Virus record (IMG/VR): IMGVR_UViG_3300030103_003573
Coordinates: 4,156 to 68,155 of that record
Length of the DNA stretch: 64,000 bases
Strand: one strand, 5' to 3'
From: a virus
Shown: positions 20,654-59,112 of the stretch, piece after piece
Layout of the letters: each line of letters begins with the position of its first letter
How positions within the stretch are numbered: the stretch's first letter is position 1
The notes under the pieces: generated by a model
What the model saw: only the letters and a program-made list of their open reading frames with translations
Told to the model about the DNA's origin: nothing
Databases searched by the model: none
Program-made: the position numbers and the translations under genes

Positions 20654-20658
20654 AGGCA

Positions 20659-20701
20659 CAAAAAACCCCACTCCCGCCTATCACGGATCAGGAGTGGGGT
20701 T
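20659..20701 (-). terminator. Intrinsic terminator-like hairpin just before polA
   Basis: Minus strand aaccccactcc...ggagtggggtt followed by ttttgtg. Confidence 0.55.
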
Positions 20702-24529: not shown

Positions 24530-24544
24530 AGTTTTTACTAAATT
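24516..24544 (+). promoter_or_regulatory. Sigma70-like promoter for TerL
   Basis: TTGTCA-17-TAAATT, 11 nt before ATG 24556; overlaps the start of the divergent HTH gene. Confidence 0.4.
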
Positions 24545-24555
24545 ACTTAAGTAGT

Positions 24556-38700: not shown

Positions 38701-41700
38701 CAGGTAGATCAACCACGGGCGACCGCATCTACAATGGCCACGCCAAGGGAGCTAGATGGAGTTGATAAGGAATTTGCTGACCTGCTTTCCGAAGCAGATG
38801 TTGCACCTGACTGGCCTTACTTCAAATCTGAACTACAGAAAGCCCAAGACTTGTTTGAGGCACAGGCGGCAAGGATAACTTTGGATTCATTCCAGCAACT
38901 TGCCCACAGCGTGTTTGTTAAGCAGGTTGGTGACGGCTCTATCCTGAAAGGACAAACTGAGTTTGACAAAAAGAAGGATGAGTTCGCAAAGCTTGATCCA
39001 ACCTTAGAGGTTAAGGATGAGGAGACAGGAGAGACCCGAACAATACCAAATGAAAAGTATCAAGAGCTAAAGGAATTCTTTGAACAGAGAGAACAACTGG
39101 CTCAGAAGATGTTTGATTCGTGGAAGGTTGCAGCCAAGCTCGATCAGCCTGTTAACTTAGAAGACCGCACTCCCTTAAGTGAAAGATTCAATTTCAACTT
39201 AAACACTTCCGAGGGTAGCCCACCGATCCCTGACACTGATGCACTGCTCAAGATGCTGGGCAAAGATCTGGAACTCAAGTCGCAAGACCCAAGTCTCGAT
39301 GACGATGGACGTTTGTATTCTAGTTTCAGAGCAAAGAGCAGGTCCGCTAAAGACTCTGAGTTTGACGCATTTGATTTCAACTACACAGAATTATTCGATC
39401 AGTTCAACCTACCAGTGTTAGAGGTAGGGGATGTCGAGGTGTATGGGAAAGGCTTTATCAATAAGATAAGAAAGTTCGTTAACACTCACGCAGTCGGATT
39501 GTTGCAGCCTGAAGTTCATCACTGGTTGAAGCACCGGCAGGGGATGACGAAGGGATTGAGTCAGGAGCTTATGCTGATTCGTTCAAAACTAAAAAGCCTC
39601 ACGGATAAAGTTTATCCTGATGGTGTCCCTGTTGATGAGAACGGTGTGTCACTTGTGCAGAAAGCTAGTGGTTCTACAGAAGGTGTGTTCATCTCAGATG
39701 AAGCACGGAAAAGAATTGATGACCAATACGAAGCCGACATGGTTGCGGCATGGACAGAATCACATCAAGCATCTCTCGATGGCACCGAACCCGCCACTAA
39801 GATCAAGGCTGATTTCGATGCAGCTTTGGAAGCCGCGAAAGCTAACCAAGAACTAGAGACACAAGTAGAACTTGGTAGGAGGAGAGATCAGTTGAAAGCT
39901 GAGAGGAATGAGGCGATCCAAAGAATCGCTCAAGACTCTAAAGAACTTTCTAACGCAATAGAAAAGCTAGGTGAGTTCCGCAACAAGATGTCAGAGAAGT
40001 TGCAGGAGATTCACAACGAGTCAGGGAAGTATGATCTTAAGATAGATCAGAACAACGACATTTACCTGACCCGTGCATACAGAATGTTCCTAGACGTTGG
40101 CTATGCCGATGCAGTCAGGAACAGTCCTGAGTATAAGAAGGAAAGAGATGCCGCCATTGCTTACTTCGAGAGCGTTCACTTGGAGATTGAGAAGAAGATC
40201 ATGATGCAGAACAACCCGCAGATGACACCGACAGAAGTCGAGAGTGCCATCAGGGATGACATGCAACGGAGACACATCGGCAAGCGTGCGCTTGAAGCAT
40301 TCATCTCTACTTACGATAGAGGGTCGAACGTGAATTACTTTGGCGCGGAGGAACAGATCAAAGCTTTGGTGGACAACCTGAAGGCTAAGAAGAATATTCC
40401 TAAAGAGCTTAGGGATATCCTTGGAGAGTTGAAGGACACTAACTTACCCGACAACTTGCTGAGAACTATAATGGTTGTTGGCAACATGGCAGCTAATCAA
40501 TCTTTCTTGAACGCTGTCGCAAAGGCAGGACTAAAGACGGAGGATAATCCAGACGGCTGGCTCTTTACTGAAGAGCAGATTGCTGGTGTGGACAACCCAT
40601 CTGACTATGCAAAACTTGTAGAAGGATCAGAGTTCAATTCTGATTTCAGTCCACTCGCAGGGCTATACGCAAAAGTAAATACAGCGAACGCATTCCGTGA
40701 GACATTCAAAAGGCACGGGACTATTGTAGCCAACCCATCGGAGCAGCTATTTGAAAATGGCTTTAAGTATTTTAGGTGGCTGACTGGATTGTCTATGGGT
40801 CTCAAGACTCTGGGTTCAATACCATTCTACTATCGGAACGCCATCGGTAACGTGTTGTTCTTTGGCCCGATGCAGGTTGGCTACATAAATATCTTTAACG
40901 TGAAGAGCGCGGGAGACCTTGTGAATGCGGGACTCCATAAAGACTTTGCAGTAAACTTCCTTAAGGAGTCGAAGAGAAACTTCCTTGGAGACAAGGCAAA
41001 GCTAAACGAATACATTGCTAAACTTCGCGTGCTACGTCTGGTCGGTGATGAATCGCACACAAATACTTTCAAGCAGTTGATGACTGGTGAAAGGGATATT
41101 GATTCTACCCTTGAAGATTTCGAGTCCATCATCCAAGGGAAGGAAGGTGACCTTAGCTTAGAAGGTAAAGTCTCAAAGGCGATAGGCGCAACAAGCAGGG
41201 CGGTGAGTCGGAGGGGAAAGATAATCGGGACAGACTTAGCACCAAGGATGGCTGCTGCAATGGACTCCTTCTACAAGATGTCCATGTTTGAGTTTGAACT
41301 TAAACACTTAAAGGCTGCTCAAGAACATGACAGGAAGATGAATCCTGATTCGACACTAGCAAAGCAGACTGACGATCAACTCCAGAAAGATGCAGCGCAG
41401 AAGGTTCTCAGGACAATGCAGTCTTATTCACAAGCACCGCCGATAGCGAGAGCGGCAAGCCGATCCGTTGCCGGTGCGCTGTATGCTCCTTTCGTCAGGT
41501 TCCAAGCTGATGTGATAAGGGTGATGTGGAACACTCCCAAGATAGCATTGGAGGAAATAAACTCTGGCAACCCCATCCTCAAAAAGAGAGGCGTGCAAAG
41601 GTTTTCTGGTTTCGTGCAAACGGCAGGGTTAGCTTCTTTAGGTTTGCCAGTGTTGCTTAGAACTATCTTTGGAATAGGTGATGATGAAGATGAAGCATTG

Positions 41701-43370: not shown

Positions 43371-43564
43371 TTGTTTTTTTGTTTGTGGTTTCGCTTTGTG
43401 ACAGGCCCGATGCGGGTCGTCGATTCTTTTCTCAATATTTCTACGGCGTGTTGCAGCTCCCTCTTGAGGTCGCTATCAGGAAGTTTCTTAATACCGTTTT
43501 TCAAAACCATCTCAGCGCAAGTGCGCCGGATAGCTGGCATGTATTTCCTTACGTCGATTATCAT
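43367..43564 (-). CDS. Hypothetical protein
   Basis: 65 aa, coupled to the helicase stop. Confidence 0.6.
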   Translation of the reverse strand: MIIDVRKYMPAIRRTCAEMVLKNGIKKLPDSDLKRELQHAVEILRKESTTRIGPVTKRNHKQKNK

Positions 43565-44898
43565 TATTCGTGGAGGTCCAAGTGGTTCTCAATCTTGCGG
43601 TTGATGCTACGCATTACATGCTCCTCGATAGAGTTGGCTGCAACCAGCACCTGTTGCAAGGCGTCTGACTTAGCACCGTTGCGGTGAATCCTACCAAGCA
43701 CCTGCTGGTAATCCTTACTGTTAAACGTAGGACAGATGAAGGAGACACGGGGGCGCATACCTTGGATGTCATGCAACGATATGCCGGTGCCACCCGCGCT
43801 GATGTTGCACACGATACAGTGTGACTCATCACGTTGGAACTCATCGATGACGAACTGTCTTTCATGCGGTTTTTGTGAGCCGTCAATCTTTCCACAATGG
43901 AGGCGAGCAGTGAGCGCGTCCACCGTATCAGAAAAGTTCACAAACAAGACAACGCTACTTCCAGCAGCCATTGCATTCTCTGCCATGTCAGCCAGATCAA
44001 CTGCCTTGTAACTCTCAGCAAGCTGGCGAGCACGTAGCAGGTTCACCAGAACATACTCGCTGTCAGTCACCGTGCCCTTGTGAATGAACTCATCAATGAT
44101 CTTAGGCGTCAGGCCGATGTCATCGTAAGCCTTCAGAATCTTAGCGTTAGATCTGAAGTTCACAGGCGTAGTGAAAACGCGGTTGTTCCTGAATGAATCA
44201 GGGAAGTCCTCAATCGAAAGGCGGTGAGTGTTCACCCCATACATCTTGGAACGGAGGCGCGGTAGCTTGGTGCGGTCAGTCATCTTCCAGCGCCTCCATT
44301 GATCTTGCGTTACGCCATGCTGCTTCATGAAAGACCAGAAGTGATACAGCGTGCCCTTGCTATAATTGTTAGAATGTAGACCAAGGATGTAACCCAGAGC
44401 CTTCATCTCACTAGCATCCTCGCAAGGTGTGCCAGACATGCAATGGATACGGTAACCCTGATCAACAAGTTGGATAGCCATCTTGCTGTTAGTAGTGTTC
44501 ATGCCTTTGCACTTGTGAACCTCATCGATCATGATGAGCGTATCGGTTGGAAGCTCCCGCTCATTCCAGACATAGGAGACAAACTTCTTACCAGTCTTGG
44601 TGACCTTGGTAACCTTGTCCAGATACTTGGTGTTACCTGTTTTTAGTCTTTCCAAGTTAAGGATGAACACTGGCTTGATGCCAACCTCCTCCATCTCTCG
44701 CTCCCATGAGGGGAGCACTGCCTTTGGTGCAATGATTGCAACCGGCTTGCCATAGTCACGGGCTAGGTGACAAGCCACGATTGTCTTGCCCGTTCCCATG
44801 TGAGAGGAGTCGAGCGTGTTGCGACCAGAGAGCAGCACCTTCAGGAAGAAGGCAACTGCTAGGACTTGCGGTGGGAATAATACTTTAGGAATTATCAT
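43564..44898 (-). CDS. Superfamily 2 (SNF2-like) helicase
   Basis: MGTGKT, IDEVH, MSGT, AGGTGISL and QVLGRIHRNG motifs. Confidence 0.88.
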   Translation of the reverse strand: MIIPKVLFPPQVLAVAFFLKVLLSGRNTLDSSHMGTGKTIVACHLARDYGKPVAIIAPKAVLPSWEREMEEVGIKPVFILNLERLKTGNTKYLDKVTKVTKTGKKFVSYVWNERELPTDTLIMIDEVHKCKGMNTTNSKMAIQLVDQGYRIHCMSGTPCEDASEMKALGYILGLHSNNYSKGTLYHFWSFMKQHGVTQDQWRRWKMTDRTKLPRLRSKMYGVNTHRLSIEDFPDSFRNNRVFTTPVNFRSNAKILKAYDDIGLTPKIIDEFIHKGTVTDSEYVLVNLLRARQLAESYKAVDLADMAENAMAAGSSVVLFVNFSDTVDALTARLHCGKIDGSQKPHERQFVIDEFQRDESHCIVCNISAGGTGISLHDIQGMRPRVSFICPTFNSKDYQQVLGRIHRNGAKSDALQQVLVAANSIEEHVMRSINRKIENHLDLHE

Positions 44899-44924
44899 TT
44901 TCTTTTGTTGTTATGTTGCTGCCC

Positions 44925-44960
44925 CTTTTGTCAGGCAAGGGGCCAGCCGTCAATTATTTT
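44925..44960 (-). promoter_or_regulatory. Repeated TTGACG-containing element, copy 1
   Basis: 36 bp with 3 mismatches to 47542-47577; minus strand aaTTGACGgctg...cttgcctgacaaaag. Confidence 0.55.
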
Positions 44961-46462
44961 CAACCAAGGTCCACTGGGAGCCAAGTGCCCCAAGGGTAGA
45001 GCTTCTCTCCCTGCCAGCCGTAGTCCAGCCAGACAACCTTGTAATCATACGGTTCCTCATCAGGCATCCGACTCCAATCAGTCTCACCATCAGTGAAGAA
45101 GAACAACGCACTGATCTCCTGATCGAGCTGCTCCTTCTCGATATAGGTGAACACCTTGTCCAACTCAGTCCACCCGTTCCCGAGGCTGGTGAGCTTATCA
45201 GGAAATGGATCACCGTAGTTAAGGTCCACAACCTCACCGACCTCATCGTCAATGGGGATCAGGATCACTCTTGAGAACTCCTTGTTGAGAGCAAACTCTT
45301 GAGCACGGGCGATCTGATCTTTCAACTCAGACTCACCAATGGAGCCAGACATATCGAATGCGAATGCCACCGTGCCAAGGGTTGGCTTGTCCCGTGCATC
45401 ACCAAGGCATCCCGTTGTGACATACGTATCATGATCGTATGGTGAACCCCACTTGGGATCTGTCATGTCATCCAGCACATCGGCCAGCAGTTCATCCCAA
45501 GGAACGGGATCACCGTGAACCTCATGCGCTGCTTCAGCAGCCCTTGCTTCCTTTAGATCTTTTTCAGATAAGAAAGTCTCACCCTTTCTCTCAGCAATAG
45601 ATGAGCTGAGAACTACGGAGTTGATATTCTCTCGCTCCTGCTTCTCAACTTCTTCCAGCGTGGAGCCTTCAGGAATCTCAGGAGGAAGAACATCACCACC
45701 AAGTGAAGAGTCACCATGATCTGATTGGCTGGCACCAATGCTGTCAGCAATCGATTGACCATCGTCACCGTCCTGCTGGTCATCACCATCGCCGGTTCCA
45801 TCGTCACCGTCCTGCTGATCGTCACCGTCCTGCTGATCGTCACCGTCCTGCTGGTCGCCATCCTCGGAAGGATCAGGACTCTTCATGAGCAGTTGATAGA
45901 TGCCCCTGATTGTCATGTTCCCATACCCACTGATCACTTGCTCACGGGGATCCATGTTCTGCTTCTTACCTTCAGCAAGGAGAGGATCATGGCAGGGTGT
46001 GAACTTACCATGCTCATCCTCAAACTCTATGATCGGGAATGGAGTGAAGCCGATCTTAGGTTCAAGGCTTAGGTTACGCTGGTGGATAATCCAGTTGTGA
46101 TGAAAGTCCATAGCACGATTTGCATTCGCTCTGTCCTTCAGATCTGCAAACCTGATAGAGTCCATGCTGAATTTGTGGGAGCCTTCATGAACCCAGAGGA
46201 ATGAAACATTCCCTTCAGGATCCTCCAATGCCTCCAGCCGTAGCATCCCCTTGGGATTGACCAGCACGGAGGTGTTACTGATAGCAGCAAAGTGTCCACA
46301 TATCTCAGTATGTGGACACAAATACCACTTCATGCCAATGAGACCATCATAGATCTCAGGGGCATACCGCTTGCATCTACGCAACCCAGCAGCAATCAGG
46401 TCGCTACCCCTGACTGATGGTGAGAAGCGTTCAAGCACATCTTCTAATTTCTTCTTAGCCAT
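44960..46462 (-). CDS. Metallopeptidase-like plus VWA domain protein (DUF2201-like)
   Basis: WVHEGSH...NRAMD, acidic linker, MIDAS motif DMSGS and FFTDG. Confidence 0.8.
   Translation of the reverse strand: MAKKKLEDVLERFSPSVRGSDLIAAGLRRCKRYAPEIYDGLIGMKWYLCPHTEICGHFAAISNTSVLVNPKGMLRLEALEDPEGNVSFLWVHEGSHKFSMDSIRFADLKDRANANRAMDFHHNWIIHQRNLSLEPKIGFTPFPIIEFEDEHGKFTPCHDPLLAEGKKQNMDPREQVISGYGNMTIRGIYQLLMKSPDPSEDGDQQDGDDQQDGDDQQDGDDGTGDGDDQQDGDDGQSIADSIGASQSDHGDSSLGGDVLPPEIPEGSTLEEVEKQERENINSVVLSSSIAERKGETFLSEKDLKEARAAEAAHEVHGDPVPWDELLADVLDDMTDPKWGSPYDHDTYVTTGCLGDARDKPTLGTVAFAFDMSGSIGESELKDQIARAQEFALNKEFSRVILIPIDDEVGEVVDLNYGDPFPDKLTSLGNGWTELDKVFTYIEKEQLDQEISALFFFTDGETDWSRMPDEEPYDYKVVWLDYGWQGEKLYPWGTWLPVDLG
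45758..45863 (-). repeat. 18-bp tandem repeat encoding a QQDGDD linker
   Basis: cagcaggacggtgacgat units x4, one of them separated by a short spacer. Confidence 0.85.
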
Positions 46463-46498
46463 TATGTTGTTTTGTTATTTTTGCATTAACACTCGGAA

Positions 46499-46516
46499 GG
46501 TTAACGGGCGTTAACC
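46499..46516. repeat. GGTTAAC-N4-GTTAACC palindrome, copy 1
   Basis: ggttaac gggc gttaacc; contains the TAA stop of 46511..47509. Confidence 0.9.
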
Positions 46517-47509
46517 CCATGACATCATGTCATCCTTTGCCTCCTCGATTATGGCAGCGCCCTTCACGATAAGATCGATTGCCTCCTCCCTTTCAGGCGG
46601 CGCGGCATTCTTCATGTCCACATGCTGAATGCTACTTGCAGCCGTGTTGAATACCTTGCTGAGTTTATCAGCTACAACGTCCGAGATATTGTAGCGTGCC
46701 ATAAGATCCTTGGCACCAGTGAGCGCCTCTTGAATCTCTGTCACCCGCTTCTGAGTCACCCTACCATTCTTATCAGTGTGGGACTTGTGGAGTGACTTGG
46801 CATTGTCCCGCATACTCTTCACAAGATACTCAACAGCATTCAGCATGTTGTTATCTTGCAGCGTCTTGTTATGGTGGACTTGAGCAGCCGTCTTGTTCTT
46901 CACCTCATTGGTAATGGCAGTGAGGAATCCGCTACGGCCAACCTCTTCAGGCTCCGTGTAGAAGATAGCCTCGATACGGAACCAGCTCTTGAGATCATCC
47001 ACACTAGGGTAGTTCATCTCCCTTGCGTTCATACCGATGCGTGCTTTCGATCTTGCGAGCATCGTATCGTATTCCAACTCAAGGTCAGGACGAACCCTGT
47101 TGATCTCAGCATTGTGCTTGTCAATCCAATGCTCCATTGCAGCACGCTCTGAAGCAGCGATGCTGTATCCTCCAGCGGCACTTGGCATGAGCCTCCCGAT
47201 GAAGCCAGCAGCCTTTGCCGCTTTGCCAAGGTGATCACTGGAATCAAAGATGGAGTTGAATGATCGTCCGATCTTGGCGATCTTACCAAGGGCACACTTG
47301 GGTTCCTCTTGTTTTGTTCTGTAAGGAACAGGTTTGAACATCGTGTCCCGACAACGGGCACTGGTTGAACCCGTGAGTTCCTTGATGGTAACTGATGCGT
47401 TCTTCAGGTTCTTACTATTCTTGGTCCATGTTGTTTTGACAGTGGGAACAACACGGATAGTTGAATGGATAGAACTTGGAGCCGACAATTTATTGAATGA
47501 TTGTTTCAT
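46511..47509 (-). CDS. Hypothetical protein (DUF3150-like) between the AAA and VWA genes
   Basis: ARIG...NYPSVDDLKSWF resembles the YP motif of proteins found in phage AAA/VWA clusters; family call tentative. Confidence 0.55.
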   Translation of the reverse strand: MKQSFNKLSAPSSIHSTIRVVPTVKTTWTKNSKNLKNASVTIKELTGSTSARCRDTMFKPVPYRTKQEEPKCALGKIAKIGRSFNSIFDSSDHLGKAAKAAGFIGRLMPSAAGGYSIAASERAAMEHWIDKHNAEINRVRPDLELEYDTMLARSKARIGMNAREMNYPSVDDLKSWFRIEAIFYTEPEEVGRSGFLTAITNEVKNKTAAQVHHNKTLQDNNMLNAVEYLVKSMRDNAKSLHKSHTDKNGRVTQKRVTEIQEALTGAKDLMARYNISDVVADKLSKVFNTAASSIQHVDMKNAAPPEREEAIDLIVKGAAIIEEAKDDMMSWG

Positions 47510-47541
47510 TTATCTTTTTACTTTTGATTGAACCGAAACCG

Positions 47542-47587
47542 CTTTTGTCAGGCAAGCGGACAGCCGTCAATTCTTTTCTAATAAAGT
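47542..47587 (-). promoter_or_regulatory. Repeated TTGACG-containing element, copy 2
   Basis: Shares 36 bp with copy 1 and an exact 24 bp (47564-47587) with copy 3. Confidence 0.55.
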
Positions 47588-47599
47588 AGATAAGGGGAA

Positions 47600-47617
47600 G
47601 GTTAACGGGCGTTAACC
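47600..47617. repeat. GGTTAAC-N4-GTTAACC palindrome, copy 2
   Basis: ggttaac gggc gttaacc, extendable by gggga/tcccc arms. Confidence 0.9.
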
Positions 47618-47629
47618 CTCCCCCCGCTG

Positions 47630-48928
47630 CTACTTGAGGGAGGAAGCACTGGCACACTGAGCAAGATCCACTCCCTTGTATTGGCACTGGTCGTATAGAT
47701 ACTCAGCCACTCCCTTGTGCAATGCACCAAGGAGATCATGAGTGAACCAGCCAGTCAGTTGCTTGTTGTGCAAGGCAACCTCCAATCCCTGATCAGAGAT
47801 CTCCTGCTCCTGACAGAGTAGATCAAGAGCACCGATACAGAATCGATACTGTTTGTCAGGACTGTCAGGCAAGGCAGTGTGATCACCGGCCTTGAACTTC
47901 TTCACATCTTCAATGATGTGACGGGTAGTGCCAATCCACTGAGCACACTTCTCACCCTGCTCTCTTCCAAGGTAGCCAATCAGCATTGCCTCGAAAGCAT
48001 CAGAGCGGTAGTCGCCCCAAGGTAACATGGCAGCACGGGCGGCACGCTCATACGTTCTTCCCGTTGCAGCTTGCTGTCCACGGTAGGACTCAACTCCCTT
48101 GAGAGGATCATGCTTGGCACTACGCTTCTCAAACTCCAGCCACTGAGTGACCTTGCTGGTCGCACACTTGTGACCGGCGGGATCTTCAATCACTGCTTTG
48201 ACAGCGAGCACATCCTTTATCCTGAAGGGAAGTGACTCAAGCATGGACTCCAAACTGAGTGAAGGATCGTTCTTCAGATCAGCAAGGAGAACTTCCAGAT
48301 CAGGTTTGCTGGTAGTAAGCAGCGCCCTGTTCTGGAAAGGGAGCGGAACGATCTTGGAGTTGGCACCATCGTAAGGACGGTTACCCGTTCCAACAATCAG
48401 CATGTTGTCAGCACACTTGAACCCTCCCAGCATCGGACCTTCCCATTCAGTCCCGACTCTGATTGGCATCATGTCATCATCCAGAACAACCTTACCTGCT
48501 TTGTCCCTTTTGTATTTAGCAACCTCGCCATCAGGATGGAATAGATCCTGAAACTGATTGTATGAATGGGCCGAGCCGTTTCCGATCTCCTCGATATTGT
48601 AGATGCCACGATCACTGCCATGCTCATCATACAGCGGGACATCAACCTTGTTAGGAGGACCCTTGAGTAGTGGACCTCCGGGATCCGCTTGGTTTGGATA
48701 TATCTGGCCACCATACACAGAGTAAGGTTGCTCCGTGAAGTTAGTCCGTTTTATCCAGACCGCTCCGATCACGGCAGCCAGCCTCTTCACCAGCCAACTC
48801 TTACCAGAGCCAGCAGCTCCAAGCTGAATGAGGAAGGGATCCTTCTGGACCATGCAAGCAAGTGCAAGGATCAGCATTGTGTGGAGGGATACATCATTGC
48901 CCATACGGGCTTCATCTTGTGGTTTCAT
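47630..48928 (-). CDS. MoxR-like AAA+ ATPase
   Basis: Walker A GAAGSGKS, Walker B NIEE, sensor IVGTGNR, FQNR arginine finger; start moved to ATG 48928 after an A-rich leader. Confidence 0.75.
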   Translation of the reverse strand: MKPQDEARMGNDVSLHTMLILALACMVQKDPFLIQLGAAGSGKSWLVKRLAAVIGAVWIKRTNFTEQPYSVYGGQIYPNQADPGGPLLKGPPNKVDVPLYDEHGSDRGIYNIEEIGNGSAHSYNQFQDLFHPDGEVAKYKRDKAGKVVLDDDMMPIRVGTEWEGPMLGGFKCADNMLIVGTGNRPYDGANSKIVPLPFQNRALLTTSKPDLEVLLADLKNDPSLSLESMLESLPFRIKDVLAVKAVIEDPAGHKCATSKVTQWLEFEKRSAKHDPLKGVESYRGQQAATGRTYERAARAAMLPWGDYRSDAFEAMLIGYLGREQGEKCAQWIGTTRHIIEDVKKFKAGDHTALPDSPDKQYRFCIGALDLLCQEQEISDQGLEVALHNKQLTGWFTHDLLGALHKGVAEYLYDQCQYKGVDLAQCASASSLK

Positions 48929-48988
48929 TATTACGTTTTGTTGTTTTACTTTTAAGGTGCCCATCCTTTAGAGCGGCGATGAGCTTCT

Positions 48989-49012
48989 CCGTCAATTCTT
49001 TTCTAATAAAGT
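48989..49012 (-). promoter_or_regulatory. Repeated TTGACG-containing element, copy 3
   Basis: ccgtcaattcttttctaataaagt is identical to 47564-47587. Confidence 0.55.
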
Positions 49013-49041
49013 TAAGAAGGGGTAGAGTGTTTACAGGGTAG

Positions 49042-49059
49042 GGTTAACGGTCGTTAACC
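49042..49059. repeat. GGTTAAC-N4-GTTAACC palindrome, copy 3
   Basis: ggttaac ggtc gttaacc; contains the TAA stop of 49054..49542. Confidence 0.9.
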
Positions 49060-49542
49060 TTCCAAGTAGTCTTGGAGCTTTCGAGGGTTAACCTTTATCC
49101 CTTCCCCATCAGTAGATGCAAAGGGAGGATCTTCAGTAGAAGTCTCAGCATAACGCCAACCGATAGGATGAGGGTGAGCAGGAGGCATGGCTCCCTTGTC
49201 AATCAAGCGTTCAAGATGTTCGCGATCCATTTGCTCAAGCGTTTTCCAATATGGTGTACGCTTCCTTTTGAAGATGGTAGTGTGCTCAATCAGATCATCA
49301 TCGATCTTCTTATTTACCTCTTCATCAATTAGCAGGTTGATGTTCTCAAGATCCCACTTGGTGGCAAAGCTAAACCCTGCCGCCAATATGGCGAGGATAT
49401 AGGACAAGGCGATGCCGGTGAGTCCAGCGGTATAGTCACCATGCAAGATGGGGACAGTCCAGATCAGGGCTGATGCAATGGACACAACAAGGGCGGCACG
49501 GAGCAGCCACAGTTTTACTTTGAGTTTAGTTCTCAGTTTCAT
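49054..49542 (-). CDS. Membrane protein with two TM segments
   Basis: Two N-terminal hydrophobic helices and a soluble C-terminus. Confidence 0.7.
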   Translation of the reverse strand: MKLRTKLKVKLWLLRAALVVSIASALIWTVPILHGDYTAGLTGIALSYILAILAAGFSFATKWDLENINLLIDEEVNKKIDDDLIEHTTIFKRKRTPYWKTLEQMDREHLERLIDKGAMPPAHPHPIGWRYAETSTEDPPFASTDGEGIKVNPRKLQDYLEG

Positions 49543-49593
49543 TTGTTTTGTTTTCGTTTAGTCATGCTTGCACTTTGCAAACACATCTCCACC

Positions 49594-49634
49594 GAGGGTT
49601 AACAAGCGTTAACCCTAAGCGGAAGGTGTCTACT
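49594..49634. repeat. 41-bp direct repeat containing palindrome copy 4
   Basis: gagggttaacaagcgttaaccctaagcggaaggtgtctact is identical to 50049-50089. Confidence 0.95.
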
Positions 49635-50016
49635 AACTCACTATTCCAAAAGTGACAGTGTTGCTCTCATGCTCTGCTCCACTTCCCTCTGGTCCGAATG
49701 AGGTAATGGTAATACAGCCACCGCCTTTCATAGTTTCCACATACCACTTTCCTTTTCTCTGGCGCACCTCGAAACCCAGATTGAAAAGAACACTGGCTTG
49801 ATTGATTCTCCTTTTGGTGAGTTGAGTCCAATGCCCTTTGCCATCTTCATCCTCACCAGTGTTCAAGGTCACCTTGTAATGAGGGTAAGCAGCGGAATCT
49901 GACTCAGCAGGTTCAAATGAAACGATATCAGTTTCATACAGCTGGACGATAGTCTTGCAACCTTCATGCCTGATGGTTGTGGCTTTCTCGAATTTGTATT
50001 GTAATGGAGTTTCCAT
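49633..50016 (-). CDS. Phage hypothetical protein
   Basis: VTLNTG...TKRRINQAS...FEVRQRKGKWYV; exactly bracketed by the 41-bp repeats. Confidence 0.75.
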   Translation of the reverse strand: METPLQYKFEKATTIRHEGCKTIVQLYETDIVSFEPAESDSAAYPHYKVTLNTGEDEDGKGHWTQLTKRRINQASVLFNLGFEVRQRKGKWYVETMKGGGCITITSFGPEGSGAEHESNTVTFGIVS

Positions 50017-50018
50017 TG

Positions 50019-50089
50019 TCTTGTTTTGTTCTATTCGTTTTTACGTTTGAGGGTTAACAAGCGTTAACCCTAAGCGGAAGGTGTCTACT
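50019..50089. repeat. Composite repeat containing palindrome copy 5
   Basis: 50019-50058 matches 50459-50498 (1 mismatch); 50049-50089 equals 49594-49634. Confidence 0.95.
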
Positions 50090-50451
50090 TACGCAATGAT
50101 CACCAATCCAGCACGGGACTCATCAATCTGATAAACCAAGGTGGTGAAGTGCTTGTCTCTGCCGGCAATGACAAGTTTCTTATTATCGTAATGGTAAACC
50201 TTGTCATTCACCCAGAAACGCACGCGGCCTATGTTCTCAATGAGACAGCGAGCCACATCTAGAGAGATACGAGTATGCTTCACAAACCCCCCATTTTCGG
50301 ACAAGTGATCGACAAGATCATCTATCCACCAATCATGCATGTCACACACTTCTTCCCCGATGGGAAGATCATAGATGTCAATCCTTGGAACGATCCAATG
50401 CCCGTTGCTTCCGGTTTCCAATAGTCTTTTGAACTGCTTTGTTTTTGCCAT
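50089..50451 (-). CDS. Hypothetical protein
   Basis: 120 aa, bracketed by repeats. Confidence 0.7.
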   Translation of the reverse strand: MAKTKQFKRLLETGSNGHWIVPRIDIYDLPIGEEVCDMHDWWIDDLVDHLSENGGFVKHTRISLDVARCLIENIGRVRFWVNDKVYHYDNKKLVIAGRDKHFTTLVYQIDESRAGLVIIA

Positions 50452-50458
50452 TGTCTTA

Positions 50459-50511
50459 TCTTGTTTTGTTCTATTCGTTTTTACGTTCGAGGGTTAACGG
50501 GCGTTAACCTC
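50459..50511. repeat. Leader repeat plus palindrome copy 6
   Basis: gagggttaac gggc gttaacctc; contains the TAA stop of 50494..51183. Confidence 0.92.
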
Positions 50512-51183
50512 AGCATGACCGGCGGCAAGATAGATCAGATCGTCAATCGCCTTCTTCCGGCCCTTGCCTTTCAACTCAGGCAGGTTCTTGCGTAGGATCT
50601 TGAGCGCAAGTTGCACGTTCTCCCTTGGAGTGTTTGCCTTTGCAGGAGCAGGAGCAGGAGCAGGAGCAGGGGAGAGGGGAACAACCGTGGAAGTCACAAC
50701 AGCTTTCACCTTGTCACCGTTATCAGTGTTACCCTTGTTAGCCCTGTATTTGATTGCAAGATCAGAGGAACGAACCTTGCTCCATGTTGCCGATGATCCT
50801 TTATCCTCCTTGGTGACCTTTGCGCCATGCGCTTTCAAGGCTTCCATTGCGCCTTGCCAAGCGTCTTTCATCCGGTTGGAAATGTCATATTGATCTTTCG
50901 GGGTTTCAGCATGAAAGCCTGAGTATTTTACCCAGATTTTCATGGCAACGCGCAACTTGGCGTGGAGGCCGGTAGCTGCATACGTTTTGACAACGTGGAT
51001 AGCTACCGCATCATCTATTGAATACTTCCTTGCATAGTTGAATGATCTTTCTGCAAAGGATTCAATGGATTGGCTGAGTTTGATGCTGGAGGTTCCAAGC
51101 GCCTTGAACTCTTTTGAATCCATGCCAGCAACTCCAAGTTCTTTCAGGACAGCATTTGCAGTGGTATTGATATGATTACTCAT
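50494..51183 (-). CDS. Hypothetical protein, first gene of the putative early operon
   Basis: 229 aa with a (PA)5 linker encoded by a 6-bp repeat. Confidence 0.75.
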   Translation of the reverse strand: MSNHINTTANAVLKELGVAGMDSKEFKALGTSSIKLSQSIESFAERSFNYARKYSIDDAVAIHVVKTYAATGLHAKLRVAMKIWVKYSGFHAETPKDQYDISNRMKDAWQGAMEALKAHGAKVTKEDKGSSATWSKVRSSDLAIKYRANKGNTDNGDKVKAVVTSTVVPLSPAPAPAPAPAKANTPRENVQLALKILRKNLPELKGKGRKKAIDDLIYLAAGHAEVNAR

Positions 51184-51215
51184 CTTCTTGTATTGTTTTT
51201 ACTTTTGTTGGATAG

Positions 51216-51250
51216 GGGAGAGGGTTAACGGCTGTTAACCTTGTCTCCCT
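51216..51250. repeat. GGTTAAC-N4-GTTAACC palindrome, copy 7
   Basis: ggttaac ggct gttaacc (51223-51240) with extended gggaga/tctccc arms, upstream of the first early gene. Confidence 0.9.
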
Positions 51251-51556
51251 TCACTATCTAAAGCGATCCGAGGAGAGGAAAGACTTTGAAACAAGGGAAA
51301 AGGGGATGCGGTAAACGCGGCGCTTTCCTTTCAGACTAGGGGAGGGAAACCATGCAACCATGCAAAATGCCGTTTGCTCAGTGCTATATAGTCCTGCAAA
51401 GTGTTTTGTTACCAAGTGTGATAGCTAACCCATTGAGAATCAGTCAGTTAGGTTATAACTTCCAACAAGATGTGTAATGCGGAGTCCCACGCCACGGGGG
51501 GGTATGCGCTTTTTGTGCGCGCGCGCGTGTACATATATACCTGTCTGTGAAAAAAT

Positions 51557-51584
51557 TTGACAAGACTCGTTCTGCACGAATAAT
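51557..51584 (+). promoter_or_regulatory. Sigma70-like promoter
   Basis: TTGACA-16-AATAAT with an upstream A-tract; ATG 51595 follows after 10 nt. Confidence 0.5.
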
Positions 51585-51594
51585 GCACGCGATC

Positions 51595-51834
51595 ATGGCA
51601 TCGAAGGAATATTACCGTAAAAACAGAGAGGCCCGTCTCAAATACCAGCGTGATTACTACAAGGCGAACAAGGGGAGAATCGCTAGAAAACGTGAGGTTG
51701 CAGAAACCGTGGATCCAAATCTTGCCAAGCGACGGAAAGAATATCAGCGTGCATATTACCGCAAACACCGTGCGCGTATTCTGAAAATGCGTGCAGAGCA
51801 GTATGCGATGAAGAAGTCCGCAAACCGCAAATGA
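51595..51834 (+). CDS. Small basic protein with three YYxxNR-type repeats
   Basis: EYYRKNRE / DYYKANKG / AYYRKHRA helices, similar to segments found next to HNH domains. Confidence 0.6.
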   Translation: MASKEYYRKNREARLKYQRDYYKANKGRIARKREVAETVDPNLAKRRKEYQRAYYRKHRARILKMRAEQYAMKKSANRK

Positions 51835-53111: not shown

Positions 53112-55373
53112 ATGAGCAGCACCTATGCCATTGACGGCCTAGAACTCGCTTCCTTAGACGATAAAGGAAAGCCCGTGGAGACGCGCTTGAAAGATGTCAA
53201 AAGCGCCCTCTCCATTTTTTCAACCCTGCTAAGATCCGACGAGAAGTCATCTATTAACAGAGCAAGGATTGACGCCATGTTTGATGGTGCTGCTCCATAC
53301 GAACAGTCCAGCCTAGTGACTAGTGGGCAAGGATTGAAAACAAACCTGAATTTTGGCGATGCTCAACGACTCCTCGATGTGGCTTTGTCTGCTTATGTTG
53401 ACCTTTATAGTTCTCTGGAGAGACTCGTCGAAGTGCGTGGCACGCAAGGAGAAGCGTCAGAGATCAAACCGGCAGAAGAAATAGTAGCTGACGAACTTAC
53501 GCAGATGATGAGGGCATGGCCCGAGTTTCACAGTGCGTATCTTCGTTTATGCACAACCTTCATTAAGCATGGCGTTTCTGCGGCTTTCTTTGATACACCC
53601 GACGATTGGCGTTTCAGGGTTGGCGGCTTCAATGATTTGCTCATCCCCCGACAGACTCCCTCTAATGAAGAGTGCATCGATGTGGCGGTGGGCCGTAGGC
53701 AATACCTGCTGCATGAACTTTACGCCCACATCAAGAATCCTGAAGCCGCCGCCAAGGTTGGCTGGGATGTTGATGAGGTAAAACGAGTTATTGAGAAAAC
53801 AGCTTCTACAAATGGGCGGTCTGGGAAAACTGGGACTTACAGCACCAGACAGTTTGAGGAGTTGCAGCAGGAGATGAAGAACAACGATCTCTACACTGGG
53901 ATTCAAAACCCGACAGTTTCTGTTCTGCATTTCTGGGTTCGTGAGATGGACGGTAGTGTCAGTCACTACATTGCTTCGGAGCACTCTCCTAAAGACTTTA
54001 TGTATAAGAAGGTTAGCCGCTACGCTAGTGTGGAACAGGCTTACATTCTTTTCACCTATGGTGTTGGCAGCAATGGGACATATCATTCCATCCGTGGTTT
54101 GGGGCAGCGGATCTTCGCCCACGTTCAGACCAGTAACAGGCTGCGTTGTCAGCAGATCGACGGAGCTATGCTTGCCTCTGCTGTAATGATCCAGCCAGAG
54201 AATCAAAGGTCACTGGACGAACTACAGTTCACCTATTACGGGGCGTATGCTGTGCTTTCTCCGAACGTAAAAATTGTTGAGAAAGCTATTCCAAACCTTG
54301 GCACGGCGGTGCAACCAGCATTGCAGGATCTTACCAACCAGTTGCAACTTAACACTGACACGGTAAGCACGTATGGCCCGAATCAGAGTTCACCATACCG
54401 CAACAAGATGCAGGTCGTCGCGGACATGGATGTTACCACCCGCCTTTCTGGAGCGAGCCTTAACTTGTTTTATTCAAGTTGGACTAGGCTTTTGAGGGAG
54501 GTGGTTCGACGGATTGTCACAACCAAGAAGCCAGATGCTGCTGTAAAAGACTTCTTTGATCGTTGCGCTGCAAAAGGGATTTCAAAAGAATTCATTAAGA
54601 CCTTGGACCTAGACCGAACCAAGGCTGTCCGCTCCATTGGTAATGGTAGCCACGCCAACCGCATGGTTGCCCTCAAAGAACTCCAAGGTATTAGCGGCCA
54701 GTTTGACGACGTTGGTAGGCGCAACCTGACAAGGGACATTGTATCCACCCGTGTTGGCCACGATCTTGCAGATAGATACGTTCCTTCCGATATTCAGAAG
54801 CGGCCCACTGTGGATGTTAAGATTGCGTTCTTTGAGAACCAGCAACTGTCGTCAGGGCAACCTGTTCCTGTTGTGGGCAATGAACTCCACGGCACTCACC
54901 TAAGTGTCCATGTCCCGGCACTTAACCAGATTATAGAACAATTAAACACTGGTGAAGTTGATCCAATGCAATCACTCCCTGTGTTGCAAGCGTTCTACGA
55001 ACATATCAGTCAAACAGTTCAATTCGCTGCTGGAGATCCTGCACTGCAAGCTGAAGTTGGTCAGGCTAATCAGATCCTCCAATTCGCTGAAGAGGCAATC
55101 AACAACGCAACTAAAGCGGCACAAAAAATTCAAAGAGATCAGCAAAGAGCAGCTCAAGAAGAAGCTGAGTTTGCTGCTGCCCAAGGACAACCCGCCCCTG
55201 CTCCTGAACAACCACAGGTTGATACCAAGATGATGGAGCATGAAATCAAGATGCGTATTGCTCAAGAGAAAGCACAGGTTGATATGGCTATCAAACAGCA
55301 GAAGCACGATCAGGAGATGGCCATGCGTGATGCTAAGTCAGCTCTTGAATTCCGCGAAAACAGTGACATCTGA
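53112..55373 (+). CDS. Portal protein
   Basis: 753 aa with a Gln-rich coiled-coil C-terminal barrel; heads the scaffold-capsid block. Confidence 0.75.
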   Translation: MSSTYAIDGLELASLDDKGKPVETRLKDVKSALSIFSTLLRSDEKSSINRARIDAMFDGAAPYEQSSLVTSGQGLKTNLNFGDAQRLLDVALSAYVDLYSSLERLVEVRGTQGEASEIKPAEEIVADELTQMMRAWPEFHSAYLRLCTTFIKHGVSAAFFDTPDDWRFRVGGFNDLLIPRQTPSNEECIDVAVGRRQYLLHELYAHIKNPEAAAKVGWDVDEVKRVIEKTASTNGRSGKTGTYSTRQFEELQQEMKNNDLYTGIQNPTVSVLHFWVREMDGSVSHYIASEHSPKDFMYKKVSRYASVEQAYILFTYGVGSNGTYHSIRGLGQRIFAHVQTSNRLRCQQIDGAMLASAVMIQPENQRSLDELQFTYYGAYAVLSPNVKIVEKAIPNLGTAVQPALQDLTNQLQLNTDTVSTYGPNQSSPYRNKMQVVADMDVTTRLSGASLNLFYSSWTRLLREVVRRIVTTKKPDAAVKDFFDRCAAKGISKEFIKTLDLDRTKAVRSIGNGSHANRMVALKELQGISGQFDDVGRRNLTRDIVSTRVGHDLADRYVPSDIQKRPTVDVKIAFFENQQLSSGQPVPVVGNELHGTHLSVHVPALNQIIEQLNTGEVDPMQSLPVLQAFYEHISQTVQFAAGDPALQAEVGQANQILQFAEEAINNATKAAQKIQRDQQRAAQEEAEFAAAQGQPAPAPEQPQVDTKMMEHEIKMRIAQEKAQVDMAIKQQKHDQEMAMRDAKSALEFRENSDI

Positions 55374-59069: not shown

Positions 59070-59112
59070 ATCCCGAACCCTGAATGACCCTTCGGGGTTC
59101 GGGATTTCTTTT
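59070..59112 (+). terminator. Intrinsic terminator after the capsid gene
   Basis: atcccgaaccctgaa...ttcggggttcgggat followed by ttctttt. Confidence 0.8.

What the first reader, a model, noticed from the sequence alone, without database searches (positions are those of the whole stretch)
46499..51250. Cassette-like early region: a GGTTAAC-N4-GTTAACC palindrome precedes each of seven consecutive genes
Seen: seven copies (cores at about 46499, 47600, 49042, 49597, 50052, 50492, 51223) with invariant arms and a variable 4-nt centre (gggc, ggtc, aagc, ggct). I saw the paired form nowhere else in the window. Each lies 35-115 nt upstream of a minus-strand start codon and has no U-tract, so these are not ordinary terminators. 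Three genes take their TAA stop from the palindrome. GTTAAC is itself palindromic, so the site is both an inverted repeat and a direct repeat one helical turn apart. Known analogies: integron cassettes (stop in the TAAC inverse core, GTT crossover), T4-type PeSL promoter-stem-loop cassettes, T7 early RNase III sites and N4 hairpin promoters. Inference: a punctuation system that makes early genes exchangeable units and/or serves as processing, promoter or operator sites. No recombinase or RNA polymerase is recognisable in the genome.
Basis: partly seen in the sequence, partly recalled or inferred. Interest (0 to 1): 0.85.

Follow-up and report, generated by a model that had tools for sequence, protein, structure and literature searches.

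The report
Genome-specific hairpins punctuate phage early genes
An uncultured marine phage puts the same small hairpin-forming sequence in front of seven consecutive early genes, related phages use different hairpins of their own in the same places, and the hairpin most likely acts in the RNA as a gene-boundary signal and marks where genes get swapped.

Summary
There are seven exact GGTTAAC-N4-GTTAACC sites, none in shuffles, and no near-copies in the 68-kb virus genome.

A sister phage has ten exact sites. Between the two, the arms are 98/98 identical, the loops 20/28, and the 30-nt flanks about 74%.

In a large uncultured marine phage family found through the portal gene, 17 of 52 usable loci carry a repeated hairpin in the same early region. 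There are ten different stem sequences, each uniform within a genome.

Stems often extend to 14-15 bp, with compensatory changes and G·T pairs almost only on the coding strand (19 against 2). So the sense strand folds, most likely as RNA.

Gene gain and loss breakpoints fall at the hairpins. However, a gene shared at 92% nucleotide identity wears each genome's own hairpin, unlike integron cassettes.

No recombinase or RNA polymerase was found. Six of seven sites lack a U-tract.

Best reading: an intercistronic RNA boundary hairpin inside a modular stop-hairpin-leader linker, related to T4-type PeSL cassettes.

What reads the fixed stem is unknown. This scan noted similar palindrome-bounded early cassettes in other phages.

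The parts
51223..51240 (-). Hairpin core 1 (sense GGTTAAC-AGCC-GTTAACC). It lies in the leader 39 nt before the ATG of the 229-aa gene. An interrupted extension spans about 51216-51249.
50492..50509 (-). Hairpin core 2 (loop GCCC). The TAA stop of the 229-aa gene lies in its second arm. It is 40 nt before the next ATG, with a D1-type A-rich leader at 50452-50491.
50052..50069 (-). Hairpin core 3 (loop GCTT). It is preceded by the conserved stop module U1 (50070-50090) and followed by a D1 leader (50017-50051). This is a hybrid linker.
49597..49614 (-). Hairpin core 4 (loop GCTT). Its stem extends to about 49587-49624, with G.U pairs on the sense strand. The U1 module lies at 49615-49635. The D2 leader with a second small hairpin lies at 49543-49596.
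49042..49059 (-). Hairpin core 5 (loop GACC). The TAA stop of the 162-aa gene lies in its first arm. It is followed by promoter-like element D3 (48990-49003) and the ATPase-like gene.
47592..47625 (-). Hairpin 6. The core is at 47600-47617 (loop GCCC), within a 15-bp stem (GGGGGGAG... / ...CTTCCCCTT, sense strand, with three G.U pairs). It is followed by D3 at 47565-47578.
46499..46516 (-). Hairpin core 7 (loop GCCC). The TAA stop of the 332-aa gene lies in its first arm. It is 36 nt before the ATG of the 500-aa VWA-like gene.
46511..51183 (-). Six early genes bounded by the hairpins: 229 aa (50494-51183), 120 aa (50089-50451), 127 aa (49633-50016), 162 aa (49054-49542), 444-aa ATPase-like (47630-48964) and 332 aa (46511-47509). 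Only the 444-aa and 127-aa products gave weak PHROGs hits; the rest gave no family.
44960..46462 (-). A 500-aa protein with a VWA-like DUF2201 domain. It is the last gene preceded by a hairpin. No hairpin follows it; a D3 element at 44948-44961 comes next.
43418..49003 (-). Four copies of the second repeated element D3 (GAAAAGAATYGACG plus a downstream stem-loop), at 43418-43431, 44948-44961, 47565-47578 and 48990-49003. In relatives it reads as a sigma-70-like promoter (TTGACG, spacer, TAAAGT).
51525..51585 (.). Probable divergent early promoters. The rightward one is TTGACA-16-AATAAT (51557-51584). The leftward one, TTGTCA...TATATA, was read by eye and does not pass the scan's rule.
   Evidence: rightward; reading (leftward, inferred)

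Best explanation
The palindrome is the core of a stem-loop that forms on the coding (sense) strand, most likely in the early polycistronic RNA.

It sits in a modular intergenic linker. The order is: stop codon(s), hairpin, sometimes a sigma-70-like promoter element (D3), an A/C-rich unstructured leader, then ATG.

I infer that it acts as transcript punctuation in three ways:
- a boundary that protects or defines the 3' end of the upstream cistron;
- an attenuator of read-through, without being a classical U-tract terminator;
- an insulator for the next gene's leader.

Because the same linker recurs between genes, it also supplies the short homology at which early genes are lost, gained and replaced, as with PeSL cassettes of T4-type phages.

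The stem sequence is fixed within a genome and replaced between lineages. So the stem is read by its sequence (reader unknown), or is kept uniform by gene conversion under selection, or both.

Shown: existence, invariance, strand-specific pairing with covariation, breakpoints at the sites, and lineage-specific alleles.

Inferred: that the folded molecule is RNA, and what the hairpin does to it.
For: 1. There are 7 of 7 exact copies in the window and 10 of 10 in the sister genome, all in the early minus-strand operon and nowhere else in either genome.

2. Selection acts on the arms. At 7 orthologous sites, the arms are 98/98 identical, the loops 20/28, and the 30-nt flanks 169/224 and 160/221.

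3. Pairing extends beyond the core.
- On 35 sites from four genomes (32 distinct rows), the flank helix has a covariation score of 0.317, against 0.173 +/- 0.018 in shuffles (0 of 500 reach it).
- Slid controls score 0.11-0.24.
- 11 of 14 pairs show changes on both sides.
- Folding energies are -6.7 kcal/mol for the core alone and -23 to -27.6 kcal/mol for extended copies.

4. There is a strand bias. In the 20 of 32 rows with a real extension, the non-Watson-Crick pairs are 19 G.T on the sense strand against 2 A.C (binomial p = 2e-4; the rows are related to each other). Across lineages the count is 20 against 7.

5. In the portal-defined family, 17 of 52 usable loci carry a perfect hairpin repeated at least 3 times in the same region. 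There are ten stem types, uniform within each genome. Most copies lie 12-47 nt before an ATG.

6. Where a promoter-like D3 element is present, the hairpin lies upstream of it: 2 of 7 in the window, 2 of 10 in the sister and 2 of 12 in L234. This is the layout of a 3' boundary followed by a promoter.

7. Canonical hairpin-plus-U-tract terminators exist in this phage (59070-59105) and in relatives, so the hairpins are a different signal.

8. Homology block ends coincide with hairpins. Against the sister phage, 4 block ends lie within 2 nt of a core edge. The same pattern holds in L234/L233 and L279/L300.
Against: - There is no RNA evidence. No RNA run holding the stretch was listed, so the molecule that folds is inferred only from the strand bias. 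A G.T pair is also tolerated in a single-stranded DNA hairpin.
- A purely structural RNA role does not explain why the 14 arm bases never vary within a genome. No reader protein was identified.
- Core stems are A/T-rich and weak (-6.7 kcal/mol) for an exonuclease barrier. 9 of the 17 copies in the window and its sister have little or no extension.
- The first copy (51223-51240) lies in a leader with no convincing upstream gene. So 'end of the upstream cistron' does not fit every copy.
- 35 of 52 related loci lack such repeats. Whatever the hairpin does is dispensable in the family.
- GTTAAC is depleted outside the cores: 5 observed against 13.6 expected, and 0 of 100 shuffles are as low. This would also fit a DNA-level reader or restriction avoidance.
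Confidence: 0.5

Rival explanations
1. Operator or roadblock sites on double-stranded DNA. A dimeric protein, phage-encoded within the early module or from the host, binds the 18-bp dyad between early genes. It modulates or shuts off early transcription, working like the stoperators of Cluster A mycobacteriophages.
For: - The arms are invariant while the 4-bp centre is free.
- The half-sites lie 11 bp apart, centre to centre, as read from the sequence.
- The palindromes are lineage-specific and uniform within a genome.
- GTTAAC is avoided elsewhere in the genome: 5 observed against 13.6 expected.
- Stoperators are numerous intergenic repressor sites that stop elongation (abstract of PMC9283540, seen in the listing).
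Against: - The flanks beyond the dyad pair with copy-specific sequences and covary, which a duplex-binding site does not need.
- Imperfections are G.T on one strand only, 19 against 2.
- No helix-turn-helix or repressor family was found in the 49 ORFs scanned with Pfam.
- Stoperators are asymmetric and bound by a monomer, according to the same abstract.
Confidence: 0.2
2. A true PeSL-type composite. The hairpin overlaps a weak host sigma-70 promoter: TTAACG/TTAACA in the first arm as the -35 element, and a TA-rich hexamer about 18 nt later as the -10. Each early gene would then have its own start signal.
For: - Read by eye, TTAAC(G/A)-N18-TAAAAA/TAAAAC/TATCCA/TATTGT appears in most window and sister copies.
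- In relative L308, a TTTCAA-N16-AAGAAT arrangement brackets the hairpin.
- PeSL stem-loops commonly lie between or over the -35 and -10 boxes (PMC2839356 section 13).
Against: - None of the 7 sites is listed by the promoter scan.
- The -10 candidates lack the final T. One sister copy has no TA at all in its leader.
- In other lineages the hairpin-to-ATG gap is only 12-20 nt (L258).
- The pattern is not consistent across lineages.
Confidence: 0.1
3. Hairpin promoters for a phage-encoded, possibly virion-carried, RNA polymerase, as in N4-like phages.
For: - Within-genome uniformity with between-lineage turnover is the signature of phage-polymerase promoters.
- A hairpin precedes each early gene, including the first.
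- The phage has a 4,274-aa protein of unknown function.
- LUZ7 has nine hairpin early promoters (PMC9163698 passages).
Against: - There is no polymerase family hit in Pfam, PHROGs or PDB sequence searches of the giant protein.
- Its conserved C-terminal 1,200 aa has no invariant acidic residue.
- That domain folds as all-helical (pLDDT 69.8) and has no Foldseek PDB match at E<=0.001.
- BLASTP against the N4 polymerase domain gives a best E of 0.33.
- The loops are 4 nt, not a conserved 3 nt.
- There is no conserved G 13-14 nt from the hairpin centre (reading).
- The sense strand folds, not the template strand.
- 35 of 52 related loci have no such hairpins.
- In 2 of the 7 window sites a sigma-70-like D3 element follows the hairpin.
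- Residues 1-3074 of the giant protein were not folded.
Confidence: 0.05
4. Recombination sites for a hairpin-reading enzyme acting on single-stranded DNA (integron attC-like, or IS200/REP-RAYT-like). This enzyme would actively move the cassettes.
For: - The hairpin is strand-specific.
- Cassette indels lie exactly at the sites.
- The arm ends resemble the integron core and inverse core.
Against: - No tyrosine or serine recombinase, HUH enzyme or transposase was found in the 49 Pfam-scanned ORFs.
- The sites are uniform within a genome.
- A gene shared at 92% nucleotide identity between lineages carries the resident hairpin of each genome, with homology ending at the hairpin edge.
- No circle-junction contig was seen. 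The one 'goes back' joint matches the sister phage's gene order.
- No bacterial genome holds multiple copies: 29 single hits.
Confidence: 0.05

Closest known systems
PeSL (promoter-early stem-loop) cassettes of T4-type phages RB49/phi1 (Arbiol et al. 2010, PMC2839356; sections 13 and 16 read)
   Same: - Both are repeated intergenic units between a stop codon and the next start, in a region of small genes without known families.
- Both contain a stem-loop with G-T pairs.
- Genes present in one phage and absent in its relative are flanked by two units where the relative has a single chimeric unit.
- Both propose exchange by homologous recombination at the units.
   Different: - PeSLs are defined by a strong sigma-70 promoter. 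Here 5 of 7 units have no promoter by scan, and the promoter-like D3 element is separate.
- PeSL stems differ between copies and are often polyG/polyC. Here 14 arm bases are identical in every copy of a genome and are replaced as a set between lineages.
- Mini-circles were shown for PeSLs. None was seen here.
N4 / LUZ7 hairpin early promoters (PMC9163698, passages read)
   Same: Both are small hairpins repeated upstream of the early genes of a podovirus-sized genome that has a giant protein. LUZ7 has nine.
   Different: N4-type promoters have a conserved 3-nt loop, a G start 13-14 nt from the hairpin centre, and a virion RNA polymerase. Use of the template strand is recalled, not taken from a call. 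None of these was found here, and the sense strand folds.
Stoperators of Cluster A mycobacteriophages (PMC9283540 and PMC6550527; search listing and abstracts only)
   Same: Both are many identical short sites in short intergenic gaps, often at stop codons, with lineage-specific variants.
   Different: Stoperators are asymmetric and bound by a monomeric immunity repressor of a temperate phage. Here the sites are dyads with covarying extended stems, and no repressor or integrase was found.
Integron attC sites
   Same: Both involve promoterless genes in one orientation separated by imperfect palindromes that fold on one strand. Here the stop codon can lie in the site.
   Different: attC sites travel with their cassette and differ within an array, and they need IntI (recalled knowledge). 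Here the sites belong to the genome and not to the gene. They are 18 nt long and uniform, and there is no integrase.
T7 early RNase III sites and bacterial REP elements
   Same: Both are stem-loops without U-tracts between cistrons of one transcript. They define or protect 3' ends and set the relative stability of cistrons.
   Different: Those elements are longer and are not letter-identical across copies. Cleavage or protection could not be tested here. No bacterial genome with many copies of this hairpin was found.

Membership tests
PeSL cassette | A sigma-70-like early promoter is part of each unit. | tested here: not met
   One search lists no promoter at any of the 7 sites. A separate promoter-like D3 element follows 2 of the 7.
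PeSL cassette | An intergenic stem-loop lies between the upstream stop and the downstream start, in a region of ORFans. | tested here: met
   Of the six bounded genes, four have no family hit and two have only weak PHROGs hits.
PeSL cassette | Differential genes between close relatives are flanked by units, with a single chimeric unit in the other genome. | tested here: met
   the sister phage has two extra hairpin-flanked units (L005 7446-8028 and 8466-8696); the window linker at 50052-50090 is a hybrid; the same pattern holds in two other pairs.
PeSL cassette | Mini-circles arise from recombination between units. | tested here: inconclusive
   laid assembled contigs only. It showed no clear circle junction. 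Raw reads of an infection are needed.
Integron (attC / IntI) | An integron integrase lies next to the array. | tested here: not met
   No recombinase family was found in the 49 ORFs scanned with Pfam or in the PHROGs scans. 12 small ORFs and the first 4,155 bases of the genome were not scanned with Pfam.
Integron (attC / IntI) | The site belongs to the cassette and varies within an array. | tested here: not met
   Sites are uniform within each genome: 7/7, 10/10, 12/12 and 12/12. The same gene at 92% nucleotide identity carries different hairpins in two genomes.
N4-type hairpin promoter | A phage RNA polymerase, virion-carried or early. | tested here: inconclusive
   No hit was found. The C-terminal 1,200 aa is all-helical with no polymerase match. 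Residues 1-3074 were not folded.
N4-type hairpin promoter | A conserved 3-nt loop, a G start 13-14 nt from the hairpin centre, and folding of the template strand. | tested here: not met
   The loops are 4 nt and vary. There is no conserved G at that distance. The G.T bias is on the sense strand, 19 against 2.
Intrinsic (rho-independent) terminator | A G+C-rich stem followed by a U-tract. | tested here: not met
   Only 1 of 7 sites passes a loose scan. True examples exist elsewhere in the phage (59070-59105).
Stoperator | An asymmetric 13-14-bp site bound by the immunity repressor of a temperate phage. | tested here: not met
   The sites are symmetric. No repressor or integrase was found (Pfam and PHROGs calls as above). 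The stoperator features are taken from the abstract of PMC9283540.
Any Rfam family | A score at or above the family's gathering threshold. | tested here: not met
   Nothing reached gathering in seven related loci. In the window, searched by E-value only, the best match is a sub-threshold 6A (RF02925): 29.5 bits against a gathering score of 41.2, and it covers the leader at 49531-49588, not the hairpin.
REP / RAYT-type host repeat | Many copies in a bacterial genome, with a cognate HUH transposase. | tested here: not met
   The scan of one genome per prokaryote species with the commonest 18-mer gave 29 stretches, each with a single match. No HUH family was found in the phage.

The most novel reading that the evidence does not exclude
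Each early-gene module carries a private tag-and-reader pair. A trans-acting factor encoded with the module recognises the genome-specific stem on the sense-strand RNA. It uses the stem to process, stabilise or shut off every early cistron. Tag and reader change together between lineages: GGTTAAC-N4-GTTAACC, GGTATAC-TCGA-GTATACC, GGTATA-N6-TATACC and seven unrelated stems. This would resemble a CRISPR repeat and its Cas6, but with genes in place of spacers.
Probability: 0.2. Interest if true: 0.8.

Novelty: new variant of a known kind. Interest (0 to 1): 0.55.

Why it matters
The phage belongs to a very common but uncultured marine family. More than 875 portal homologues were found, and none matched a cultured phage in the collection searched.

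Its early region shows a clean natural example of standardised intergenic connectors. Any gene placed between two connectors gets stops, a structured boundary and a leader.

If the fixed stem has a dedicated reader, this would be a new way for phages to mark and control their first-expressed genes. The ten interchangeable stem types would then be a ready-made set of orthogonal parts.

If there is no reader, the case still shows how short repeats drive gene turnover in phage early regions well outside the T4 group, and how all copies in a genome can switch sequence together.

Tried and rejected
**RNA evidence.** The look-up of sequencing runs listed no RNA holder. This says nothing about expression.

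**Laid contigs.** Read laying used assembled DNA contigs of four runs.
- The contigs break at the repeats.
- Loose ends cluster at 49546-49548 and 49582-49585.
- One joint lies at 49060.
- The 'goes back' joint (50501 to 49545) fits the sister phage's gene order rather than a circle.
- There is no evidence of circles.

**Collection scans with DNA patterns.**
- The scan of the virus collection for the motif gave mostly single, chance-level hits.
- The scan for the variant GGTATAC-N4-GTATACC gave 105 stretches, none from relatives.
- The D2 leader pattern was found only in the sister contig.
- The host-repeat or CRISPR-repeat idea gave 29 single matches in prokaryote genomes and no arrays.

**Searches through the ATPase-like gene.**
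- Homologues at 53-55% identity exist.
- The pattern scans did not find them either.

**Cultured relatives.** The phage collection gave none by DNA, by the 633-aa protein at 26752-28653, by the ATPase or by the portal. DNA polymerase A is at best 27.8% identical to Bacteroides phages.

**Search for a reader by gene presence.** No early protein family tracks hairpin presence.
- The 332-aa/ATPase/VWA trio occurs in 6 of 10 hairpin types, but also in 4-6 of 35 loci without hairpins.
- The small basic YY-repeat protein is family-wide.

**Giant protein as a polymerase.**
- My motif spotting (a K-x7-Y segment and an HDS triplet) was not borne out.
- There is no invariant acidic residue, the fold is all-helical, and there is no PDB match.
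- The Atlas gave nothing for residues 900-2500.

**Supplements.** The supplements of Weinberg et al. 2017, where the 6A motif is probably described, were closed. The main text does not mention it.

**Stop codons in the palindromes.** 9 of 11 stem types contain a sense-strand stop, against 59% of random palindromes. 5 of 11 close two frames, against 12%. This is suggestive only.

Full report
**The observation.**
- The pattern GGTTAACNNNNGTTAACC occurs exactly seven times in the window, at the stated coordinates, and never in 100 shuffles.
- The window is bases 4156-68155 of a 68,155-base virus record rated complete.
- The whole record has the same seven sites and no copy with one or two mismatches.
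- All seven lie between ORFs of the minus strand, in a run of genes that reads from about 51.2 kb down to 42.8 kb.
- On that strand the unit reads GGTTAAC-(AGCC, GCCC, GCTT, GCTT, GACC, GCCC, GCCC)-GTTAACC, followed by C/T then T.
- The gaps to the next ATG are 39, 40, 35, 54, 77, 90 and 36 nt.
- Three upstream genes take their TAA from an arm.
- Only one site passes a loose hairpin-plus-T-run scan. That scan found no more sites in the region than in shuffles.

**What the phage is.**
- The family scans found the following:
  - DNA polymerase A (18908-20671);
  - a DUF5906/primase-type protein (16758-18911);
  - a PD-(D/E)XK nuclease and a RuvC-like resolvase;
  - a helicase (43564-44898);
  - a large terminase (24445-26343);
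  - an endolysin;
  - a 2,684-aa fibre protein.
- The 753-aa product of 53112-55373 looks like the portal. This is an Atlas lead, with the SU10_portal family on 11% of one cluster.
- It has more than 875 homologues at 75-99% identity in marine metagenomes.
- Nothing in the cultured-phage collection matches the portal, the ATPase-like protein or the DNA.
- No integrase, transposase, HUH enzyme or RNA polymerase family was hit in 49 ORFs scanned with Pfam.

**The sister genome.**
- One virus contig of 59,292 bases encodes the ATPase-like protein at 96% identity.
- It has ten exact copies of the motif, again none with mismatches, all in the same region.
- At seven orthologous positions the 14 arm bases are identical in all (98/98). 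The loops agree at 20/28 and the 30-nt flanks at 169/224 and 160/221. So the arms are under constraint, but the loop and the surroundings are not.
- Six of the ten sister loops are ACCC, which indicates some copying between sites.
- The sister has two extra units, each a leader plus a small gene with a hairpin on both sides. The window has a single hybrid linker at the same place.
- Four homology block ends lie within 2 nt of a core edge.

**The family.**
- An alignment of portal proteins brought in 80 loci from the virus collection, each with up to 10 kb on either side.
- Of 52 loci with a usable upstream flank, 17 have a perfect hairpin (arms of at least 6 nt) repeated three or more times in the region upstream of the portal. 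35 do not. A further 28 loci had too short a flank.
- There are ten stem types, each uniform within its genome:
  - GGTTAAC-N4;
  - GGTATA-ACCRAY-TATACC (12 copies in each of two contigs);
  - TTAACAAC-TGA-GTTGTTAA (14 and 10 copies);
  - TTTGGAT-ACA-ATCCAAA;
  - GTTTAAT-N5-ATTAAAC;
  - TAGTGC types;
  - ACTAGT-N4-ACTAGT;
  - CTCCCTT-N3-AAGGGAG;
  - TACCCC-TTAA-GGGGTA;
  - ATTAAGC-GAC-GCTTAAT.
- Most copies sit a short, lineage-typical distance before an A/C-rich leader and an ATG.
- On a portal tree the types are clade-specific and scattered among clades without them. Very close portals can have different early modules.
- A loose end in contigs of two public runs shows a third version at the 49585 junction, GGTATAC-TCGA-GTATACC. 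This sits between the window's version and the GGTATA version: two stem pairs are flipped on both sides.

**Which molecule folds.**
- In the window, its sister and the GGTATA lineage, many copies pair well beyond the core, to 14-15 bp, using different letters in different copies.
- On 35 sites (32 distinct rows), the eight-to-twelve flank pairs show covariation above both controls. The score is 0.317 against 0.173 +/- 0.018 in shuffles, with 0 of 500 reaching it, and slid registers score 0.11-0.24.
- In the 20 rows with a real extension, the imperfect positions are G.T on the coding strand 19 times and A.C twice. Across lineages, on unique stems, the count is 20 against 7.
- A duplex-binding site needs no such pairing. 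A template-strand hairpin would show the opposite bias.
- So the coding strand folds. RNA is the simplest reading, though a non-template DNA hairpin is not excluded.

**What it is not.**
- *Not an ordinary terminator.* The phage has classical ones, such as 59070-59105 after the capsid gene. So do relatives without hairpins, which also have plain TTGACC-N16-TAATAT promoters and unstructured CCTGAAC-repeat linkers.
- *Not a known RNA family*.
- *Not a host repeat.* The prokaryote genome scan gave 29 single matches.
- *Not integron-like.* A 58-61-aa gene is 92% identical over 172 nt between the sister phage (GGTTAAC type) and L234 (GGTATA type). Its neighbours are unrelated or 24-47% identical as proteins. 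The homology starts at about the ATG and stops exactly at the hairpin edge. The gene moved and the linker stayed.
- *Not, on present evidence, an N4-type promoter.* The reasons are:
  - the loop length, the lack of a fixed start base and the strand bias;
  - the hairpin-free relatives, and the sigma-70-like D3 elements that follow some hairpins;
  - the giant protein's conserved C-terminal domain. It is found in 1,431 representative proteins, has no invariant acidic residue, folds as all helix (pLDDT 69.8) and has no PDB match at E<=0.001;
  - residues 1-3074 were not folded, so this is not closed.

**How it most likely works.**
- The linker is a standard connector: stops (the GGTTAAC core closes two reading frames by itself), a stem-loop, sometimes a promoter element, and an unstructured leader.
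- I infer that the stem-loop defines or protects the end of the upstream message. It would also damp read-through and keep each leader free of upstream pairing.
- The repeated connector is also the homology at which genes are deleted, inserted and replaced. This is the PeSL model (PMC2839356, sections 13 and 16).
- The unexplained part is the letter-perfect stem and its wholesale replacement between lineages. That calls for a sequence reader, or for strong homogenisation by gene conversion, or both.
- GTTAAC is three-fold depleted outside the cores. This fits a reader, but also restriction avoidance.

**Relation to earlier notes of this scan.**
- A note on this genome described the 40-41-bp repeats bracketing two of the genes. 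I saw the same modules.
- Notes on other genomes report invariant palindromes bounding early cassettes in several unrelated phages, all filed nearest to PeSL. This case is one more of that recurring kind.
- It adds three things: evidence for the folding strand, ten allele types in one family, and a gene that changed hairpins when it changed genome.

Noticed in passing
window 43418-43431, 44948-44961, 47565-47578, 48990-49003 (minus strand): A second repeated element reads GAAAAGAATYGACG, followed in three of the four copies by a stem-loop whose stem covaries (CCGCTT/AAGCGG against GCCCCTT/AAGGGGC) around a conserved loop, GCCTGACA. It is conserved across the family. In relatives it reads as TTGACG, a spacer and TAAAGT, with the -10 box in the loop. 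That makes it a promoter-stem-loop much closer to a true PeSL than the GGTTAAC hairpin is.
   Followed up: partly
window 51595-51834 (+): A 79-aa, very basic protein has repeated YYxxN(K/R) motifs, behind a TTGACA-16-AATAAT promoter. It is conserved at the same place in 14 of 15 relatives inspected (not found in L297), including three lineages without hairpins. It has no family hit. The overlapping 106-aa minus-strand ORF (51448-51768) is probably not a gene.
   Followed up: partly
window 49531-49588 (minus strand): The leader after hairpin 4 has a second small hairpin and an A-rich tail. It gives a sub-threshold match to Rfam 6A RNA (RF02925): 29.5 bits against a gathering score of 41.2, over the full model length. 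The same leader recurs three times in the sister phage.
   Followed up: partly
whole genome G000: Outside the seven cores, GTTAAC occurs 5 times against 13.6 expected, and 0 of 100 shuffles are as low. GTATAC occurs once against 3.9 expected. This could be restriction avoidance or avoidance of stray reader sites.
   Followed up: partly
window 39022-42621 (+), C-terminal 1,200 aa of the 4,274-aa protein: This is a widely conserved domain: 1,431 representative proteins at E<=0.001. It mostly lies at the C-terminus of 2,000-6,000-aa proteins, and also occurs alone as proteins of about 1,100 aa. The predicted fold is all-helical and has no solved relative.
   Followed up: partly
loci L241, L254, L273, L291 (relatives): Lineages without hairpins join their early genes with tandem CCTGAAC-type heptamers, for example TGAACCCTGAACCCTGAACCCTGAACCCCGATAAATG. 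This is a different standard connector.
   Followed up: no
L005 7426/7466; L234 7657/7599; L279 6956/6941: Tandem hairpins lie 40-58 nt apart, or overlap by sharing TTAA, between one pair of genes. They look like scars of unit insertion.
   Followed up: no
window 44960-46462 against L005 12481-14031: The 500-aa VWA-like protein is 95-98% identical to its sister copy, except for a replaced segment at residues 199-236.
   Followed up: no
window 53112-55373 (+): This is the probable portal of a very abundant marine phage family with no cultured member in the collection searched. One homologue is filed in a public record under a Euryarchaeota genome bin.
   Followed up: partly
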